Under the pieces are notes generated by a model. It saw only the letters and a program-made list of their open reading frames with translations. It was not told the origin of the DNA and searched no databases. Below are positions 9,479 through 61,959 of a stretch of DNA of 64,000 bases, piece by piece. The position numbers were made by a program, and so were the translations under genes. Location of the stretch: positions 128,001 to 192,000 of the forward strand of contig OY776215.1 of assembly GCA_963675495.1 (NCBI GenBank). Direction: 5' to 3'. The DNA is from an uncultured Methanolobus sp. (GTDB taxonomy: Archaea; Halobacteriota; Methanosarcinia; Methanosarcinales; Methanosarcinaceae). How positions within the stretch are numbered: position 1 is the stretch's first letter; every line of letters begins with the position of its first letter.

Positions 9479-10501
9479 ATGGGCACACAAATAGGAGCAT
9501 TACTCACAAAGAACCCTATCACTTACGAAGAACTCAGCGGCAAAGTGATTGCTATCGATGCATACAATACCATTTACCAGTTCCTTAGTGCTATTCGCCA
9601 GCGTGATGGTTCACTGCTCACAGATTCCAATGGAAATCCCACATCCCATCTTACCGGCATGTTCTCAAGAACCAGCAAACTGAGGGATGCAAACATCAAA
9701 CCGGTCTTTATCTTTGATGGTAAACCGCCGGATATGAAGAGGGAAACACTAGATAAACGTAAGGAATGCAAAGAGAATGCAGCCCGTAAATATGAGATTG
9801 CCAAGGATGAAGGCAACATTGAGGACATGAAGAAATTTGCACAGGGAACTTCCCGAATAACCCCGCAGATACTTGATGAATCAAAAAAACTCCTTGACCT
9901 TATGGGTATTCCTCACATTCAGGCAGAATCCGAAGCAGAAGCACAGGCGGCGTTCATGGCTTCCCGAGGGGATGCGGATCTTGTTGGTTCACAGGATTAC
10001 GATGTTTTTCTTTTCGGAGCCGAAGATGTCGTTCGCAATCTGGGAAGCAGTGGAAAGAGAAAGGTCCCTGGGAAGAAAGAGTACGTTGTAAAGACCCCGG
10101 AGCATATTTCCCTGACAGGTTCCCTTGAGCAGTTAGACATAACCCGTGAACAACTTATTGATCTTGCCATCTGCATTGGTACGGATTTCAATGAAGGTAT
10201 CCATCGTGTAGGTGCCAAGACAGCCCTTAAGCTTATTCGTAAACACGAGGACATTGATACTATTATCAGGGAAGAGAACAAGGATATCAGGGCTTGTACT
10301 TCAGTAGAAGAAATTAGGCAATTCTTCCTGGATCCACCCGTAACTACTGATTATAATCTCAGTTGGAAGAAGCCGAAGTCAGAGACCTTGTGTGATTATC
10401 TTGTTGAAAGGGACTTTTCGGAAAAGCAGGTGCTCAAGAATACTGAGATCTTAGAGAATAAAGCGAATGATGAGTGTCAGTCCTGTCTTGGAGATTGGTA
10501 A
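9479..10501 (+). CDS. fen: Flap endonuclease-1
   Basis: IDAYNTIYQFL, VFIFDG, EAEAQ, SQDYD, GTDFN; C-terminal PIP box QSCLGDW. Confidence 0.95.
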   Translation: MGTQIGALLTKNPITYEELSGKVIAIDAYNTIYQFLSAIRQRDGSLLTDSNGNPTSHLTGMFSRTSKLRDANIKPVFIFDGKPPDMKRETLDKRKECKENAARKYEIAKDEGNIEDMKKFAQGTSRITPQILDESKKLLDLMGIPHIQAESEAEAQAAFMASRGDADLVGSQDYDVFLFGAEDVVRNLGSSGKRKVPGKKEYVVKTPEHISLTGSLEQLDITREQLIDLAICIGTDFNEGIHRVGAKTALKLIRKHEDIDTIIREENKDIRACTSVEEIRQFFLDPPVTTDYNLSWKKPKSETLCDYLVERDFSEKQVLKNTEILENKANDECQSCLGDW

Positions 10502-10761: not shown

Positions 10762-11397
10762 GTGGATAAAGAAGTCAAGCCTTCAATAAAGGTATCAAAG
10801 AATGGACCATATATTGTAAAAGATCTTAAATTATTCAGGAACTCAAAGAGTGTTTTCATCGAGACAAAACCCGTTATGACACTTTGCAGATGTGGAGGCT
10901 CGGTAAATATGCCATTCTGCGATGGAACACATACAAAGAACGGTTTTTCCGGTGACAATGAAAAAGACCGTGTTGCCAGCAAAGTTGAAACTTACGTCGG
11001 GAAAAATATTAGCATCCACCGTAACAAAGATGTGTGTTGCCATGTAGGTCATTGTGTTCGTACTCTGCCTTCTGTTTTCAAAAAGGGTGAAAAACACTGG
11101 GCATATCCGGATGCTGTAAGCCCGGAAGAGATCGCAAAACTAATCAAGACATGTCCTTCTGGCGCATTGAGCTATACTATTAACGGAGAAATGCATAAAG
11201 AATATCCACATGAGCCGGAAATCTTTGTTCTGAAGGATGGACCTTACAATGTTACAGGGATAGAGCTTAATGACCCCGATGGTTCAGAACCCGAAACCCA
11301 GGACCATTATTCCCTTTGCAGATGTGGAGCCTCTAAAAATAAACCATTCTGTGACGGCAGTCACCGCGATGTTGAATTCAAAGATGATAAGAATTGA
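10762..11397 (+). CDS. CDGSH Fe-S protein with central 4Fe-4S-type domain
   Basis: Two LCRCG..S...PFCDG[TS]H motifs flanking CCHVGHC...CPSGAL. Confidence 0.9.
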   Translation: MDKEVKPSIKVSKNGPYIVKDLKLFRNSKSVFIETKPVMTLCRCGGSVNMPFCDGTHTKNGFSGDNEKDRVASKVETYVGKNISIHRNKDVCCHVGHCVRTLPSVFKKGEKHWAYPDAVSPEEIAKLIKTCPSGALSYTINGEMHKEYPHEPEIFVLKDGPYNVTGIELNDPDGSEPETQDHYSLCRCGASKNKPFCDGSHRDVEFKDDKN

Positions 11398-11503
11398 ATC
11401 TCCTTGATCTTTTGATATAATATTCAAAAGATAACTCTAAGGGCAATAAAACTGCTCTGGATGGTCTTTCTCAAGTAATTTACAGTCATAGGACCGCCAG
11501 TAC

Positions 11504-11516
11504 CTTATATTATAAA
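11504..11516 (+). promoter_or_regulatory. Candidate TATA box for the downstream structured RNA
   Basis: CTTATATTATAAA; its first TTATAT lies ~26 nt before the 5' stem at 11532. Confidence 0.5.
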
Positions 11517-11531
11517 GCACATATAGTCACT

Positions 11532-11778
11532 TGGTTACAAGGGAGTAAGCTGTAAAATGGAGCAGCGTTCAGGGCGGGGAGCACATTGGAACCGTACCAT
11601 AACAAACTTCATTTACGCGTCGTTTGGATGAAGCAAATATTAGGTGAATATAAAGTAAATTTCAGAACGGGATAAAGCTCGTTCACACAGTCGCTTCATC
11701 AACGTATAGCCGAAATGAAGTGAAATTCAGGACGGGATAAAACCCGATCCCGTAATAACCTTCAACACCTTGTGACCA
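11532..11778 (+). ncRNA. Candidate ~250-nt structured non-coding RNA, family unrecognised
   Basis: 11-bp closing stem TGGTTACAAGG/CCTTGTGACCA; three internal hairpin-TTCAG-hairpin modules; G.U wobbles only on the + strand; no ORF in the track. Confidence 0.6.
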
Positions 11779-12587
11779 CCATATTGCTTTTCTGATCGAG
11801 CTTTTGATGTTACACTATTCAGCCTTGCGTTTATTATCTGGCAGACCGGTAAAAATGTAGTTATCGGATTACAAAAGTGGGAATGAGCAATAGAATAAAA
11901 AAATTAAAAATGATTTGTATTCGGATGTAAAGCAATTTATTTTATCTTTGTATGTGATATCCAATTTAATCACCTAAATCAAAACGTATATTTGTTTTTT
12001 GCAACAGAAATTGCGAATATATATCGCTTGAACGTCATTTTTCCTCAATTGTGAAAGTGATATCAAAAGTACGGTTGGACTGCAACACAAGCATTTGCTG
12101 AAATTGTAAATAGCAAAGCAAGAATTTAGAAAATCATCACAGCCTGTACAACATGTTATACATCACATTAGTATATTAAAAATATATGATTAGTGGAGAA
12201 TGAAGATTATCTCTCAGTATCCGATTTTCATATTTATCTTAAAGGATCATTGAGTATGAGTTGCATTACTATGGAGCTGGTCAGTTGTTTGGGGCATAGA
12301 GCATCTATGAGTTATGTGTATATATTTCCAGGTGAATTTTCAGGAGCAATCCTTCCCAGTTGAATCAACTCTCACTTTTATTGATACTTATTCTTTCAGT
12401 AATGACTACTCACAGCAAAAAACAGTGGAGAAGCAAATCATACATACACGCCGGTTACTGTCGATAATAAAACTGTAAGAGAATAATAATAGAGAGTACT
12501 TTTTTCAGAAAATGTAAAAAAGAGTCACGATATCGATTAGCCCACTAAATATTGTGGAGATCCAAAAAAAAGAGAAATGGTAGAGAA

Positions 12588-14051
12588 TCACTCTCTCCAT
12601 TCGTATATGTAGTTCGTTCTGTAGGTTGCTCCATTGCTGTATGTGTAAAGAATTCTGAATGAGCCTCCAAATGCGTTTTCCCACGGTGCATTTGCCTTGA
12701 ATGTACCTTCTTTGATGGTGCCTGTTGCATCCTGCCAGTCCATCTTGAAGTAAGCTCCATACGTTTCATCTTCCAGCTTGTAGTGGCTTGAGGAACCTCT
12801 ATCAATTGGCATTTCAGCCATATCTATGTCAATAGCGCTTGTATCACCAAGTCCAAGTCCGCCAGTTTCCATGAAGGTGGCTTCTTTTGTTACTTTGATT
12901 GAAATCTCTTCTTCAGCAGCATAGAAGTCCTTTGGTTCTTCAGAGATCGTTCTTACCTGTGCAGTTTCGCCTTTGTCCCCGATGTCACTGGTCCAGACAT
13001 TAGCTCTTTCGTAATCTACATCGTAGCTATAGTAGTCATGCGTGCTTACCACCTTGTCACCGTAGTCTTCAACTGTTGTAAGATACCAGCCAGGTACTGT
13101 GTCTGATGTGCTTGTACTAGATGACGATGCTACTCTGGTTCCTGTCCAGCCACCGCTCCATCCTGCACTATCAGAGCCATATCTCCAGTTTCCGGTGAAT
13201 GAATTACCATCACTGCTCAGTTTTAGTTCTGCGTCACCTGCATCGTTTGGTTCTGCGTATGAAGGACTTTCGGACCAGGTTCCTATGAATACATCACCGT
13301 TTACAACACCTTCAAGTCTTCCCTCATCATGTGTGTATTCACCGATGATCTTATCGCCTGATTGTGTGAATGTCATATCGCCCCAGTTCGAAGTCCATTC
13401 TCCTACGAAGCTGTGCGATGTGCTTTCTGCTGTGAATCCGCTTTGTGGAGTTGGTATTTCTTCTGTTGAATCTGCGTTTTCAAAATCTGCTTGCTGGCTG
13501 CCTATCGTTGTACCGTCCAGCAGGTCCAGTGGTATTGAGACTGTTGCTCCGTCTATTATCTCAAATTCTACGGATTCTTCAACTCCTGCTCCACTTATTA
13601 TTACTTTGTAGTCTCCAAGTGGCCAGCCTTCATCTGGTTTTTCAAGAATGAATGTTCCACGTCCAAAGTCTTCACCTGTTTCAGATTCGAAAGTGTGGAT
13701 CGAGTAATCTGTGTCAAGGTATATCCATTCTATACTTATTATGTCGTTCTCGAAGTTATCGTAAATGAACCATGCGTACAATTCTTCTGAATCCTTTGAA
13801 TATTTCAGTACTTTATCGACTGGTATGAAGTTTTGTGTTGCTGATGTCATCATCACTTCAAGAAGTCGTGGTTCGCCTGTGGCTGTCATGTCACCATATT
13901 TATCCGTTACTGCCTCTACGATCTGCTGTTCTTCTTCGGTTGCTCCGAAGCTTCCAGGTTTATATGAGTCACTTATATCCGTACATCCTGAAAATGCTAT
14001 TATGCCTATCAAGAGTAATGCTACTACTATTTTTGATTTCATTTTTACCAT
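12588..14051 (-). CDS. Secreted lipoprotein of unknown function
   Basis: Lipobox IAFSGC; Ig-like N-terminal region; GEWTSNWGDMTFTQSG beta-rich domain; Ser/Thr linkers. Confidence 0.8.
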   Translation of the reverse strand: MVKMKSKIVVALLLIGIIAFSGCTDISDSYKPGSFGATEEEQQIVEAVTDKYGDMTATGEPRLLEVMMTSATQNFIPVDKVLKYSKDSEELYAWFIYDNFENDIISIEWIYLDTDYSIHTFESETGEDFGRGTFILEKPDEGWPLGDYKVIISGAGVEESVEFEIIDGATVSIPLDLLDGTTIGSQQADFENADSTEEIPTPQSGFTAESTSHSFVGEWTSNWGDMTFTQSGDKIIGEYTHDEGRLEGVVNGDVFIGTWSESPSYAEPNDAGDAELKLSSDGNSFTGNWRYGSDSAGWSGGWTGTRVASSSSTSTSDTVPGWYLTTVEDYGDKVVSTHDYYSYDVDYERANVWTSDIGDKGETAQVRTISEEPKDFYAAEEEISIKVTKEATFMETGGLGLGDTSAIDIDMAEMPIDRGSSSHYKLEDETYGAYFKMDWQDATGTIKEGTFKANAPWENAFGGSFRILYTYSNGATYRTNYIYEWRE

Positions 14052-61886: not shown

Positions 61887-61959
61887 AGCCCGGTAGTGTA
61901 GTGGTCAATCATGCAGGACTCTGGATCCCGCAACCTCGGTTCGAATCCGTGCCGGGCTA
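61887..61959 (+). tRNA. tRNA-Gln(CTG)
   Basis: AGCCCGG/CCGGGCT acceptor with archaeal A1-U72; anticodon CTG at 61921-23; TTCGAAT loop; one mismatch in each of the anticodon and T stems. Confidence 0.92.

What the first reader, a model, noticed from the sequence alone, without database searches (positions are those of the whole stretch)
11504..11790. Stand-alone ~250-nt structured RNA built from three repeated hairpin-UUCAG-hairpin modules
Seen in sequence, in an ORF-free gap: an 11-bp terminal stem (11532-42/11768-78) encloses three modules. These are GCTG..CAGC-gTTCAGggcgg..ccgt, then CTTCAT..ATGAAG...TTCAGAACGGG-ATAAAG-CTCGTTC, then CTTCAT..ATGAAG..TTCAGGACGGG-ATAAAA-CCCGATCC. The last two end in stems with an AUAAAR loop and compensatory changes. 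The two CTTCAT/ATGAAG blocks can fold locally or zip into one long duplex (11606-34/11693-721), so the RNA may have two conformers. G.U pairs favour the + strand, a TATA-like box precedes it and T-rich sequence follows. The next gene is convergent, so a cis riboswitch is unlikely. It does not resemble SRP RNA, RNase P RNA or tRNA. Inference: a multi-site protein sponge/scaffold or tandem-aptamer RNA of a family I do not recognise.
Basis: partly seen in the sequence, partly recalled or inferred. Interest (0 to 1): 0.82.

Follow-up and report, generated by a model that had tools for sequence, protein, structure and literature searches.

The report
New modular RNA family in Methanosarcinaceae
The gap holds a real gene for a roughly 260-base non-coding RNA that matches no catalogued family, built from three copies of a folded module that related methanogens repeat up to twelve times; what the RNA does is still unknown.

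Summary
Window 11532-11795 (+) is an ORF-free, single-copy locus. An 11-bp clamp helix (11532-42/11768-78) encloses three diverged copies of a ~68-nt module.

It is a gene family. BLAST hit 74 of 177 genomes of the family, in 4 of 16 genera. A covariance model of the module hit 29 of 151 genomes of the order, all in those 4 genera and none in 5 other families. Named records with several units are Methanosarcina, Methanolobus and Methanomethylovorans.

Conserved across genera are a TATA-type promoter ending about 25 nt before the clamp, the clamp itself (5 of 11 pairs with compensatory changes), the distal hairpins and a T-run. G.U outnumbers A.C 109 to 11, so the + strand is the RNA.

Nothing in Rfam 15 matches, ARAGORN finds nothing, and the literature I could search describes nothing like it.

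Two compensatory changes favour redrawing the module as one long arm: AUGRAG/CUUCAU stem, conserved internal loop with UUCAG, distal hairpin. That gives a clamp plus three arms.

Unit number runs from 3 to 12. Long arrays in Methanosarcina-type genomes mostly lie just after type I restriction hsdR genes.

Function is untested. My best guess is a multivalent protein-binding RNA (about 0.4). Transcription was not shown.

The parts
11491..11523 (+). Conserved promoter region: upstream motif GGACCGCCAGU (11491-11501), TATA-like CTTATATTAT (11504-11513) and ACATA (11519-11523). The predicted start is at about 11532-11534.
   Evidence: Conserved in 16 of 16 aligned full-length homologs, including other genera (and sequences printed). 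The TATA box lies about 25 nt before the clamp, which fits the usual archaeal TATA-to-start spacing (my own knowledge). No transcript end was mapped.
11532..11542 (+). Clamp helix P1, 5' strand (UGGUUACAAGG).
   Evidence: Pairs with 11768-11778. On alignment A3 (23 RNAs) 97.6% of cells pair, and 5 of 11 pairs have changes on both sides.
11543..11556 (+). Linker 0 (GAGUAAGCUGUAAA). It is homologous to the 3' half of the inter-arm linker of full units.
   Evidence: Alignments.
11557..11612 (+). Arm 1: AUGGAG (11557-62) pairs with CUUCAU (11607-12). Inside are UUCAG (11568-72) and the distal helix 11572-77/11592-97.
   Evidence: Model B pair counts: helix 26-31/84-89 pairs in 99.3% of cells with one G-C to A-U double change. 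The distal helix has 3 of 6 pairs with double changes.
11613..11627 (+). Linker 1 (UUACGCGUCGUUUGG). It carries the ACGCGU palindrome typical of the family.
   Evidence: Six-mer counts over 133 units.
11628..11699 (+). Arm 2: AUGAAG (11628-33) pairs with CUUCAU (11694-99). Inside are a 22-nt insertion seen only in this genome (about 11635-11656), UUCAG (11661-65) and the distal helix 11665-71/11678-84 with loop AUAAAG.
   Evidence: insertion absent from the other 22 aligned RNAs. (helix 109-114/182-187 pairs in 95.6% with one double change; distal helix has 4 of 6 pairs with double changes). Covariance model R1 scores 25.3 bits at 11607-11661.
11700..11714 (+). Linker 2 (CAACGUAUAGCCGAA).
   Evidence: Alignments.
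11715..11764 (+). Arm 3, the best conserved: AUGAAG (11715-20) pairs with CUUCA (11760-64). Inside are UUCAG (11726-30) and the distal helix 11730-35/11744-50 with a bulged A and loop GAUAAAAC.
   Evidence: Covariance model R1 scores 77 bits, E 4.5e-12, at 11694-11758. Pair counts.
11768..11778 (+). Clamp helix P1, 3' strand (CCUUGUGACCA).
11779..11795 (+). 3' tail with a T-run (TTTT at 11788-11791), the probable archaeal oligo-T termination site.
   Evidence: A T-run 10-20 nt after the clamp recurs in homologs. The bacterial-type terminator scan found none, as expected for an archaeon. The end was not mapped.

Best explanation
Window 11532-11795 (+) is an independently transcribed gene for a ~260-nt non-coding RNA of an uncatalogued family.

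Anatomy:
- The ends pair in an 11-bp clamp.
- The clamp encloses tandem copies of a ~68-nt module: three here, and up to twelve unit hits in a single relative's array.
- Each module is best drawn as one long arm. It has a 6-8 bp basal stem (AUGRAG with the next CUUCAU), a nearly invariant internal loop (CAAAUUCA opposite CCGUAAYAAA), a 6-bp distal stem with a bulged A, and an A-rich 8-nt loop.
- Arms are joined by ~16-nt linkers that are less conserved and usually carry an ACGCGU palindrome.

Proposed mechanism: the RNA displays several identical, sequence-specific sites on one nuclease-protected scaffold. In that way it binds, and titrates or assembles, several copies of one protein, or one oligomeric partner. 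Capacity is set by the number of units.

Shown: the family, its limits, conservation of the promoter, clamp and T-run, covarying helices, and the strand.

Inferred: transcription, the arm register, and any partner.

I put about 0.9 on 'real structured RNA gene of a new family' and about 0.4 on the multivalent-binding mechanism. The confidence figure is for the mechanism.
For: Real and non-random:
- z -4.3, 0 of 200 shuffles.

Family:
- Full-length homologs at 70-81% identity in the same genus.
- BLAST hit 74 of 177 genomes of the family, only in genera g1 22/35, g16 6/6, g23 6/11 and g25 39/59.
- Covariance model R1 hit 29 of 151 genomes of the order: g1 10/13, g25 12/13, g16 4/4, g23 2/2, and 0 of 102 in the five other families.

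Structure:
- Unit alignment A2 (81 units): 96.9% of cells pair, and no shuffle of 500 reached the observed percentage paired, cells with double changes or covariation score. The distal helix has 5 of 6 pairs with double changes, one of them A-U 39 / G-C 29 / G-U 10.
- Full-length alignment A3 (23 RNAs): 94.3% paired, 15 pairs with double changes, and no shuffle of 500 reached any of the five measures. Slid controls pair in 31-52% of cells.
- Clamp: 5 of 11 pairs with double changes.

Strand:
- G.U 109 against A.C 11 on A3, and 74 against 17 on A2.
- All unit hits in a locus lie on one strand.

Gene-like flanks:
- Conserved TATA-type promoter and T-run.

Trans-acting, independent gene:
- Single locus in the genome.
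- Neighbouring genes differ between genomes.

For a multivalent binding role:
- Nearly every position of the arm is fixed in sequence, not only in pairing (column counts).
- Unit number varies 3 to 12 while the clamp and the end units are kept.
- The truncated first and last units complement each other, so the RNA holds only whole arms.
Against: - No transcript was seen.
- No partner protein is identified, and no RNA-binding gene is consistently adjacent.
- No archaeal RNA of the sponge type is known to me (my own knowledge), so the analogy comes from bacteria.
- High sequence conservation would also fit recognition by a processing nuclease, ligand binding or tertiary contacts.
- The register of the arms rests on only two compensatory events. 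Model A fits almost as well (93.9% against 94.3% paired; 760 against 756 pairs).
- The element is missing from near-complete genomes of the same genus searched (for example G001, G005 and G099), so it is dispensable.
Confidence: 0.4

Rival explanations
1. It is a precursor RNA. An endonuclease cuts the array at a fixed place in each module and releases ~68-nt unit RNAs that are the active species, as with ToxI antitoxin repeats or pre-crRNA.
For: - Head-to-tail units of constant length: 68-nt period, with 3-12 units.
- Invariant sequence around the unit junctions could be a cleavage signal.
- Arrays in Methanosarcina-type genomes lie in restriction and defence islands.
Against: - The conserved, covarying clamp that pairs the two ends over 220-800 nt argues for a function of the intact molecule.
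- So does the complementary truncation of the first and last units.
- No nuclease or toxin gene follows the array in the same orientation. The next gene in the window is convergent and about 800 nt away, and contexts vary.
- The variable segments of units are homologous to each other, not spacer-like.
Confidence: 0.2
2. It is an RNA tied to type I restriction-modification or defence islands. It would be a regulator, decoy or component that modulates restriction or another island function. The 3-unit copies such as the one in this window would be dispersed relatives.
For: - Of 19 arrays with 4 or more unit hits whose flanks I annotated, 11 lie within about 3 kb of hsdR, hsdM or an hsdR C-terminal remnant. 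Usually the array sits directly after hsdR on the same strand (L051, L052, L054, L055/L228, L059, L063, L068, L213, L217, L218, L219).
- Of 22 loci with 3 or fewer unit hits, 1 does.
- PDC-M11A/B candidate defence genes follow the array in L054.
- A zeta-toxin-domain gene and transposases lie near others.
Against: - The window's own copy is not near restriction genes. G000 has two hsdR genes elsewhere with no array beside them.
- 8 of the 19 long arrays have no restriction gene nearby.
- The loci were picked from best hits and come from related genomes, so the counts are not independent.
- Variable islands collect unrelated insertions.
- No match in plasmid, phage or viral-contig collections.
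Confidence: 0.12
3. It is a base-pairing regulatory sRNA. Its repeated single-stranded segments (linkers or loops) pair with mRNAs, like the Methanosarcina mazei intergenic sRNAs.
For: - It is a stand-alone promoter-driven intergenic RNA in a group known for trans-acting sRNAs (abstract and passages of PMC3510493 and PMC4152357, seen).
- CUUCAU is complementary to AUGAAG start regions (seen in the sequence).
Against: - BLAST of the whole element against its own genome, both strands, gave only chance-level matches of 14-22 nt with E 2.5 or worse.
- The most conserved segments are inside helices or an internal loop.
- There is no anti-ribosome-binding-site motif (CCUCC) in the unit consensus.
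Confidence: 0.1
4. It is an RNA-only function: tandem small-molecule aptamers, or an RNA that assembles with itself through the palindromic ACGCGU linkers and A-rich loops.
For: - The ACGCGU palindrome is the commonest linker six-mer. Variants ACAUGU and GCGUGC stay self-complementary.
- The internal loop and the A-rich loop are nearly invariant.
Against: - There is no regulated downstream gene, so it is not a riboswitch in the usual sense.
- Up to 12 units would be unprecedented for aptamers (my own knowledge).
- Palindrome covariation is weak and confounded by relatedness. This window's own linker 2 (ACGUAU) is not self-complementary.
Confidence: 0.08
5. It is not an RNA. It is a DNA-level repeat, either a protein-binding array or the remnant of a mobile element (MITE).
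For: - It is a tandem repeat with internal dyad symmetry.
- It lies at a synteny break: similarity to the closest relative G001 ends just after the upstream gene.
- Its distribution within the genus is patchy.
Against: - G.U against A.C asymmetry of 109 to 11 and 74 to 17 makes no sense for DNA.
- A conserved promoter and T-run frame the element.
- There is one locus in the genome, and no dispersed copies.
- Compensatory changes keep the helices.
Confidence: 0.04

Closest known systems
CsrB/RsmZ-type and CrcZ-type protein-sequestering RNAs of bacteria
   Same: A stand-alone RNA that repeats one short structured site many times. The number of sites varies between relatives. The proposed logic is titration of a multimeric RNA-binding protein. 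(The properties of these families are recalled, not taken from a call.)
   Different: - There is no sequence or model match (Rfam scans).
- The sites here are ~50-nt arms with a conserved internal loop, not GGA hairpin loops or A-rich single strands.
- The organism is an archaeon and no partner is known.
- A terminal clamp closes the molecule.
ToxI and other type III antitoxin repeat RNAs
   Same: Head-to-tail repeats of a structured unit transcribed from one promoter. Some relatives' arrays lie in defence islands.
   Different: - The unit is 68 nt rather than about 34-45 nt (recalled).
- No toxin gene follows in the same orientation.
- The ends are clamped.
- No PADLOC hit for a ToxN-like protein among the nine proteins scanned, all from relatives' loci; the window's own downstream protein was not scanned.
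Methanosarcina mazei intergenic sRNAs (sRNA162, sRNA154, sRNA41)
   Same: The same family of organisms. Independent intergenic genes with archaeal promoters (PMC3510493: abstract in the listing; PMC4152357: abstract and passages).
   Different: Those are 100-200-nt base-pairing regulators without a 68-nt modular repeat, as far as I recall.
Cold-induced 'cold box' sRNAs of Methanolobus psychrophilus (Li et al. 2015, PMC5378194)
   Same: The likely genus is the same. The paper reports nine highly conserved intergenic sRNAs with a conserved motif upstream of their promoters (passages read). The family here also has a conserved motif upstream of its TATA box.
   Different: No sequence is given in the main text. 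The motif and the sRNA list are in supplements I could not open, so identity is untested. In G000 the upstream motif occurs once as a promoter element. The only other close match lies inside a coding sequence.
CRISPR arrays
   Same: A period of 60-80 nt. A conserved part alternates with a more variable part in each unit.
   Different: - The variable ~17 nt are homologous between units, not unrelated spacers.
- The conserved part is about 50 nt.
- No cas gene appeared among the neighbours with Pfam hits.
- The ends are clamped.

Membership tests
Any Rfam 15 family | A score at or above the family's gathering threshold, or at least a credible E-value. | tested here: not met
   The whole window at gathering thresholds gave only a tRNA at 61887-61959. 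Permissive scans of 11350-12200 and of a 4-unit relative (L229 8900-9450) gave no match on the element.
tRNA / tmRNA | Cloverleaf or tmRNA model. | tested here: not met
   ARAGORN found 0 genes in 11300-12300.
CsrB/RsmZ-type sponge | Many GGA motifs in hairpin loops (recalled definition). | tested here: not met
   The loop consensus is AUUAAAAC. GGA occurs only inside the distal stem (GGAC).
CsrB/RsmZ-type sponge | A cognate CsrA-family protein in the genome. | not tested
   I ran no search for CsrA. It is not expected in archaea (my own knowledge).
Type III toxin-antitoxin (ToxIN-like) | Repeat array directly upstream of, and co-oriented with, an endoribonuclease toxin gene. | tested here: not met
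   The next gene in the window is convergent and about 800 nt away. No co-oriented conserved downstream gene appears across 41 distinct loci. No ToxN-like PADLOC hit.
CRISPR array | Identical short repeats separated by unrelated spacers, usually with cas genes nearby. | tested here: not met
   All 68 positions of the unit align between units. No cas family appeared among the Pfam hits.
MITE or other dispersed repeat | Many dispersed copies per genome. | tested here: not met
   There is one locus in G000 by BLAST and by covariance model.
Cis-acting riboswitch or leader | Fixed position upstream of a co-oriented regulated gene. | tested here: not met
   The downstream gene is convergent. Neighbours differ between genomes.
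C/D box sRNA | C box RUGAUGA and D box CUGA flanked by a terminal stem, about 50-70 nt. | tested here: not met
   No C/D family hit on the element. On the + strand the units lack both boxes (seen in the sequence).
The new family itself (clamped tandem-arm RNA of Methanosarcinaceae) | Promoter, then clamp 5' strand, then N units with UUCAG plus the GGACRG/CYGAUCC hairpin, then CUUCA, then clamp 3' strand, then a T-run. | tested here: met
   The window's RNA aligns end to end with 22 others from four genera. R1 scores 77 bits on arm 3.

The most novel reading that the evidence does not exclude
This would be the first archaeal example of a copy-number-tunable, multivalent RNA platform. A clamped rosette of identical arms would capture several copies of a protein. 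In Methanosarcina-type genomes it would have been recruited and expanded next to type I restriction hsdR genes, as an RNA component or regulator of a defence island. That class of RNA has no described counterpart in archaea.
Probability: 0.2. Interest if true: 0.85.

Novelty: new variant of a known kind. Interest (0 to 1): 0.65.

Why it matters
Methanosarcinaceae are the main model methanogens, yet few of their non-coding RNAs have a known structure or role.

- This family is conserved across four genera. It has a clear modular design with a clamp and identical arms, and unit number varies four-fold.
- That design points to stoichiometric binding of a partner. If so, it would open a layer of post-transcriptional or defence control not yet described in archaea.
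- The link of long arrays to type I restriction loci gives a concrete, testable handle in genetically tractable Methanosarcina strains.
- Even if the function proves modest, the family deserves a curated model so that these loci stop being annotated as empty gaps.

Tried and rejected
- **Expression data.** The look-up of sequencing runs listed no RNA holder for window 11300-12300. The four holders are contigs of unknown kind from one study. Laying them showed only that the DNA is present, so nothing can be said about expression, ends or level.
- **Literature.** Searches, and passages read, found no description of this RNA. Jager et al. 2009 (PNAS) is not held. They may bear on the 'cold box' question.
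- **Earlier scan notes**: nothing on this element.
- **K-turn reading of the internal loop or of hairpin 1.** The needed tandem G.A positions are not conserved (column counts). Rejected by inspection.
- **GNRA mini-hairpin in the linker.** Only 118 of 212 units pair at columns 12/17, with 34 C.A. Rejected.
- **H-type pseudoknot between the A-rich loop and the 3' linker.** No covariation among the top mutual-information pairs. Rejected.
- **Three-unit higher-order periodicity of long arrays.** Not consistent: the best lag is 3 in one array, 4 in two, and none in the others. TRF does see a 205-nt period in one array.
- **Regulon search with the upstream motif in G000.** The only other close match is inside a coding sequence.
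- **Partner by neighbourhood.** A 404-477-aa lipoprotein-like protein is next to arrays in 7 loci. It looks extracellular (weak DUF4352), has no PADLOC hit, and is absent from G000 with this query. I do not take it as an RNA partner.
- **Plasmid, phage and viral-contig collections:** no match.
- **The loose pattern scan of genome contigs** gave many single chance hits in bacteria. Only hits with several units were used.
- **One BLAST hit in another family** (G033, E 1.4e-4) falls in the insertion specific to this window and was not reproduced by the covariance model (0 of 6). Treated as chance.
Full report
**1. The observation**

Window 11400-12580 has no ORF longer than 56 aa. Only a 31-aa minus-strand ORF touches the element. 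The flanking genes are a CDGSH/4Fe-4S protein ending at 11397 (+) and a convergent 487-aa gene at 12588-14051 (-).

- The 11-bp clamp is 11532-42 with 11768-78.
- The three UUCAG pentamers are at 11568, 11661 and 11726.
- CUUCAU/AUGAAG blocks are at 11607/11628 and 11694/11715.
- The two AUAAAR-looped hairpins are present.

The + strand folds to -80.6 kcal/mol, z -4.30, with 0 of 200 shuffles as good. The - strand is slightly weaker (-78.6, z -3.66).

**2. It is a gene family, not a local oddity**

In its own 2.87-Mb genome the element is single-copy by BLAST and by covariance model.

Relatives of the same genus hold full-length homologs at 70-81% identity, sometimes two per genome.

Across the taxonomic family, BLAST found matches in 74 of 177 genomes. 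All were in four genera: g1 22/35, g16 6/6, g23 6/11, g25 39/59. The other twelve genera had none.

I built covariance model R1 from 81 units and searched 151 genomes of the order.
- It hit 29 genomes: g1 10/13, g25 12/13, g16 4/4, g23 2/2.
- It hit 0 of 102 genomes in the five other families.
- It hit none of the other genera of the same family that were sampled.

These are samples, so I say 'not found in those searched'.

In the named genome collection, records with several units are titled Methanosarcina, Methanolobus, Methanomethylovorans or Methanosarcinaceae. One short contig with three units is binned as Cloacimonadota. The many single hits in bacteria are chance matches to a loose pattern. 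From these titles and the genome size, the window's organism is probably a Methanolobus. That is an inference.

**3. Anatomy common to the family**

- A conserved upstream block (..AGUnAUA-uRACCGnCAGU..), a TATA-like box and an ACAUA element come first.
- About 25 nt after the TATA box comes the 5' strand of the clamp (UGGUCAYAAGG).
- Next comes a first unit that lacks its 5' part, and then N units of ~68 nt.
- The unit consensus is CUUCAUUGACGCGUAAGCUGUAAAAUGRAGCAAAUUCAGGACRGAUUAAAACCYGAUCCCGUAAYAAA.
- Then a last half unit (CUUCA..), the 3' strand of the clamp (CCUUGUGACC), and 10-20 nt later a T-run.

All unit hits in a locus lie on one strand: 242 hits in the loci then held. Tandem Repeats Finder sees the 68-nt period in a 12-unit relative. 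It sees nothing in the window, where the three modules have diverged.

The window's arm 2 carries a 22-nt insertion (about 11635-11656) that the other 22 aligned RNAs lack.

**4. Structure and strand**

On the unit alignment, 96.9% of cells form standard pairs, and no shuffle of 500 reached the observed percentage paired, cells with double changes or covariation score. Slid controls pair in 29-52% of cells. The distal helix has 5 of 6 pairs with changes on both sides. The clearest pair reads A-U 39, G-C 29, G-U 10 and other 3 (the same pair in 133 units reads G-C 60, A-U 58, G-U 12, A-C 3).

On the full-length alignment of 23 RNAs the clamp pairs in 97.6% of cells, with 5 of 11 pairs changed on both sides.

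G.U pairs outnumber A.C 109 to 11 on the full-length alignment and 74 to 17 on the unit alignment. The structure therefore belongs to the + strand RNA and not to DNA or the opposite strand.

The relatedness of the sequences inflates shuffle statistics. The slid controls and the double changes in several lineages are the more telling evidence.

**5. Where a module begins and ends**

CUUCAU and AUGRAG can pair in two ways.
- Model A: within a unit.
- Model B: each AUGRAG pairs with the CUUCAU of the next unit, enclosing UUCAG, the distal hairpin and CCGUAAYAAA.

Because the arms hardly vary, both fit: 760 against 756 base pairs formed, summed over 129 adjacent-unit comparisons of six arm positions each.

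Two independent lineages break the tie.
- In L231 a G-to-A change in the first AUGRAG is matched by C-to-U in the next CUUCAU.
- In L188 the same double change occurs one arm further on.
- Both give A-U pairs in model B and mismatches in model A (15 against 13 pairs with double changes, 94.3% against 93.9% paired).

ViennaRNA ensembles of a 4-unit relative also lean to B (0.38-0.55 against 0.21-0.33). The window's own minimum-energy fold nests both.

In model B four further pairs (A34-U65, U35-A64, U36-A63, C37-G61) can extend the arm. They are nearly invariant, with slight covariation at 34-65 (A-U 150, A.C 41, G-C 6, G.U 4).

I therefore draw the RNA as a clamp plus three ~50-70-nt arms, a four-way junction. 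I keep model A, or an exchange between the two, as possible.

**6. What varies and what does not**

Inside the arm almost every base is fixed.

The ~16-nt linker varies in sequence and length. It usually holds ACGCGU, and the variants ACAUGU and GCGUGC stay self-complementary.

Unit number ranges from 3 (this window and most of its genus) to 12. Identity between units of one array runs from 72% to 97%, so arrays grow and shrink.

**7. Context**

The window's gene follows a CDGSH protein gene. The same holds in G105 and one locus of G023. In the closest relative, G001 (93% identical protein, no RNA), similarity stops just after that gene.

Other copies in the genus sit beside unrelated genes, three times beside a FilR1/DUF1724-type regulator.

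In Methanosarcina-type genomes a pattern appears.
- Of 19 arrays with 4 or more unit hits whose flanks I annotated, 11 lie within about 3 kb of a type I restriction hsdR or hsdM gene or an hsdR C-terminal remnant. Usually the array sits just after hsdR on the same strand.
- Of 22 loci with 3 or fewer hits, 1 does.
- These loci were picked from best hits in related genomes, so this is a lead and not a statistic.

G000 has two such hsdR genes with no array beside them. No match exists in the plasmid, phage or viral-contig collections.

**8. What it is not**

- No Rfam family, even at permissive thresholds, for the window or for a 4-unit relative.
- No tRNA or tmRNA.
- Not a MITE, because there is one locus.
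- Not a CRISPR array, because the units are homologous throughout.
- Not a type III antitoxin by context.
- Not a cis leader.

**9. Mechanism**

The design is identical, sequence-fixed arms on a clamped scaffold. Arm number changes while the ends are preserved. The first and last units are truncated so that only whole arms result.

This fits best an RNA that binds several copies of one partner and works as an intact molecule, by titration or assembly. I give that about 0.4.

A precursor diced into 68-nt RNAs gets about 0.2. It is disfavoured by the clamp and by the absence of a linked nuclease.

A role tied to restriction and defence islands gets about 0.12 and is not exclusive of the others.

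Base-pairing sRNA, RNA-only function and DNA repeat follow.

Nothing here shows transcription.

**10. Literature**

Six searches and the passages read gave no description of this RNA.

Li et al. [quoted passage not shown] The sequences are in supplements I could not open, so a link to the conserved upstream block seen here is open.

The Methanosarcina mazei sRNA catalogue of 2009 is not held. I therefore cannot exclude that one of its unnamed candidates overlaps an array.

**11. Verdict**

This is a real, conserved, structured RNA gene of an uncatalogued family confined, as far as searched, to four genera of Methanosarcinaceae. The module boundaries should be redrawn as above. The function is unknown, and multivalent binding is the best guess.

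Noticed in passing
window 12086-12148 (-): Weak matches to eukaryotic C/D box snoRNA models (best 21.9 bits, E 0.49). There is a C box GUGAUGA and a terminal stem, but I see no CUGA D box, so this is probably not a C/D sRNA.
   Followed up: partly
window 9479-10501 (+) and 10876-11397 (+): A flap endonuclease (XPG_N/XPG_I) gene is followed by a protein with two CDGSH iron-binding zinc-finger stretches and a divergent 4Fe-4S domain. A paralogue of the latter (70% identity) lies elsewhere in the genome.
   Followed up: partly
window 12588-14051 (-): A 487-aa protein with an N-terminal lipobox-like signal (..AFSGC..) and no Pfam family. It is convergent with the RNA gene.
   Followed up: partly
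L063:609-2042, L217:4318-5742, L213:7117-8352, L062:1474-2715, L051:325-1539, L052:1179-2150, L050:3988-4680: One family of proteins lies next to the RNA arrays in seven loci, mostly convergent with them. Full-length members are 404-477 aa; two loci hold shorter ORFs of 230 and 323 aa. The proteins are lipobox-bearing, 44-94% identical in pairwise matches, with only a weak DUF4352 match and no PADLOC hit. The family was not found in G000 with this query. It is unrelated to the window's own lipoprotein gene.
   Followed up: partly
L054:4216-6501: Directly after a 9-unit array lie genes matching the candidate defence system PDC-M11A (E 3.9e-147) and PDC-M11B, the latter running into a type I specificity-subunit fragment.
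   Followed up: no
L218:5194-5565, L219:6961-7332; probably also L054:2413-2784 (123 aa, not scanned): In genus g16 a small PRC-barrel protein gene sits between an hsdR C-terminal remnant and the array, on the same strand as the array. A 123-aa ORF in the same position in L054 was listed but not scanned against Pfam.
   Followed up: no
L228:8700-8795: A separate 12/24-nt tandem repeat (GGTTCGGAGAAAAGTTTGGAGAAA, 4 copies, 95% matches) lies between hsdR and the promoter of the 12-unit array.
   Followed up: no
L011/L231, L024, L057: A FilR1/DUF1724-type winged-helix regulator gene lies next to the RNA gene in three loci. In two of them it is divergent and 300-450 nt away. It is a possible regulator of the conserved upstream block.
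   Followed up: no
window 61887-61959 (+): A tRNA gene is the only Rfam match at gathering threshold in the window.
   Followed up: no
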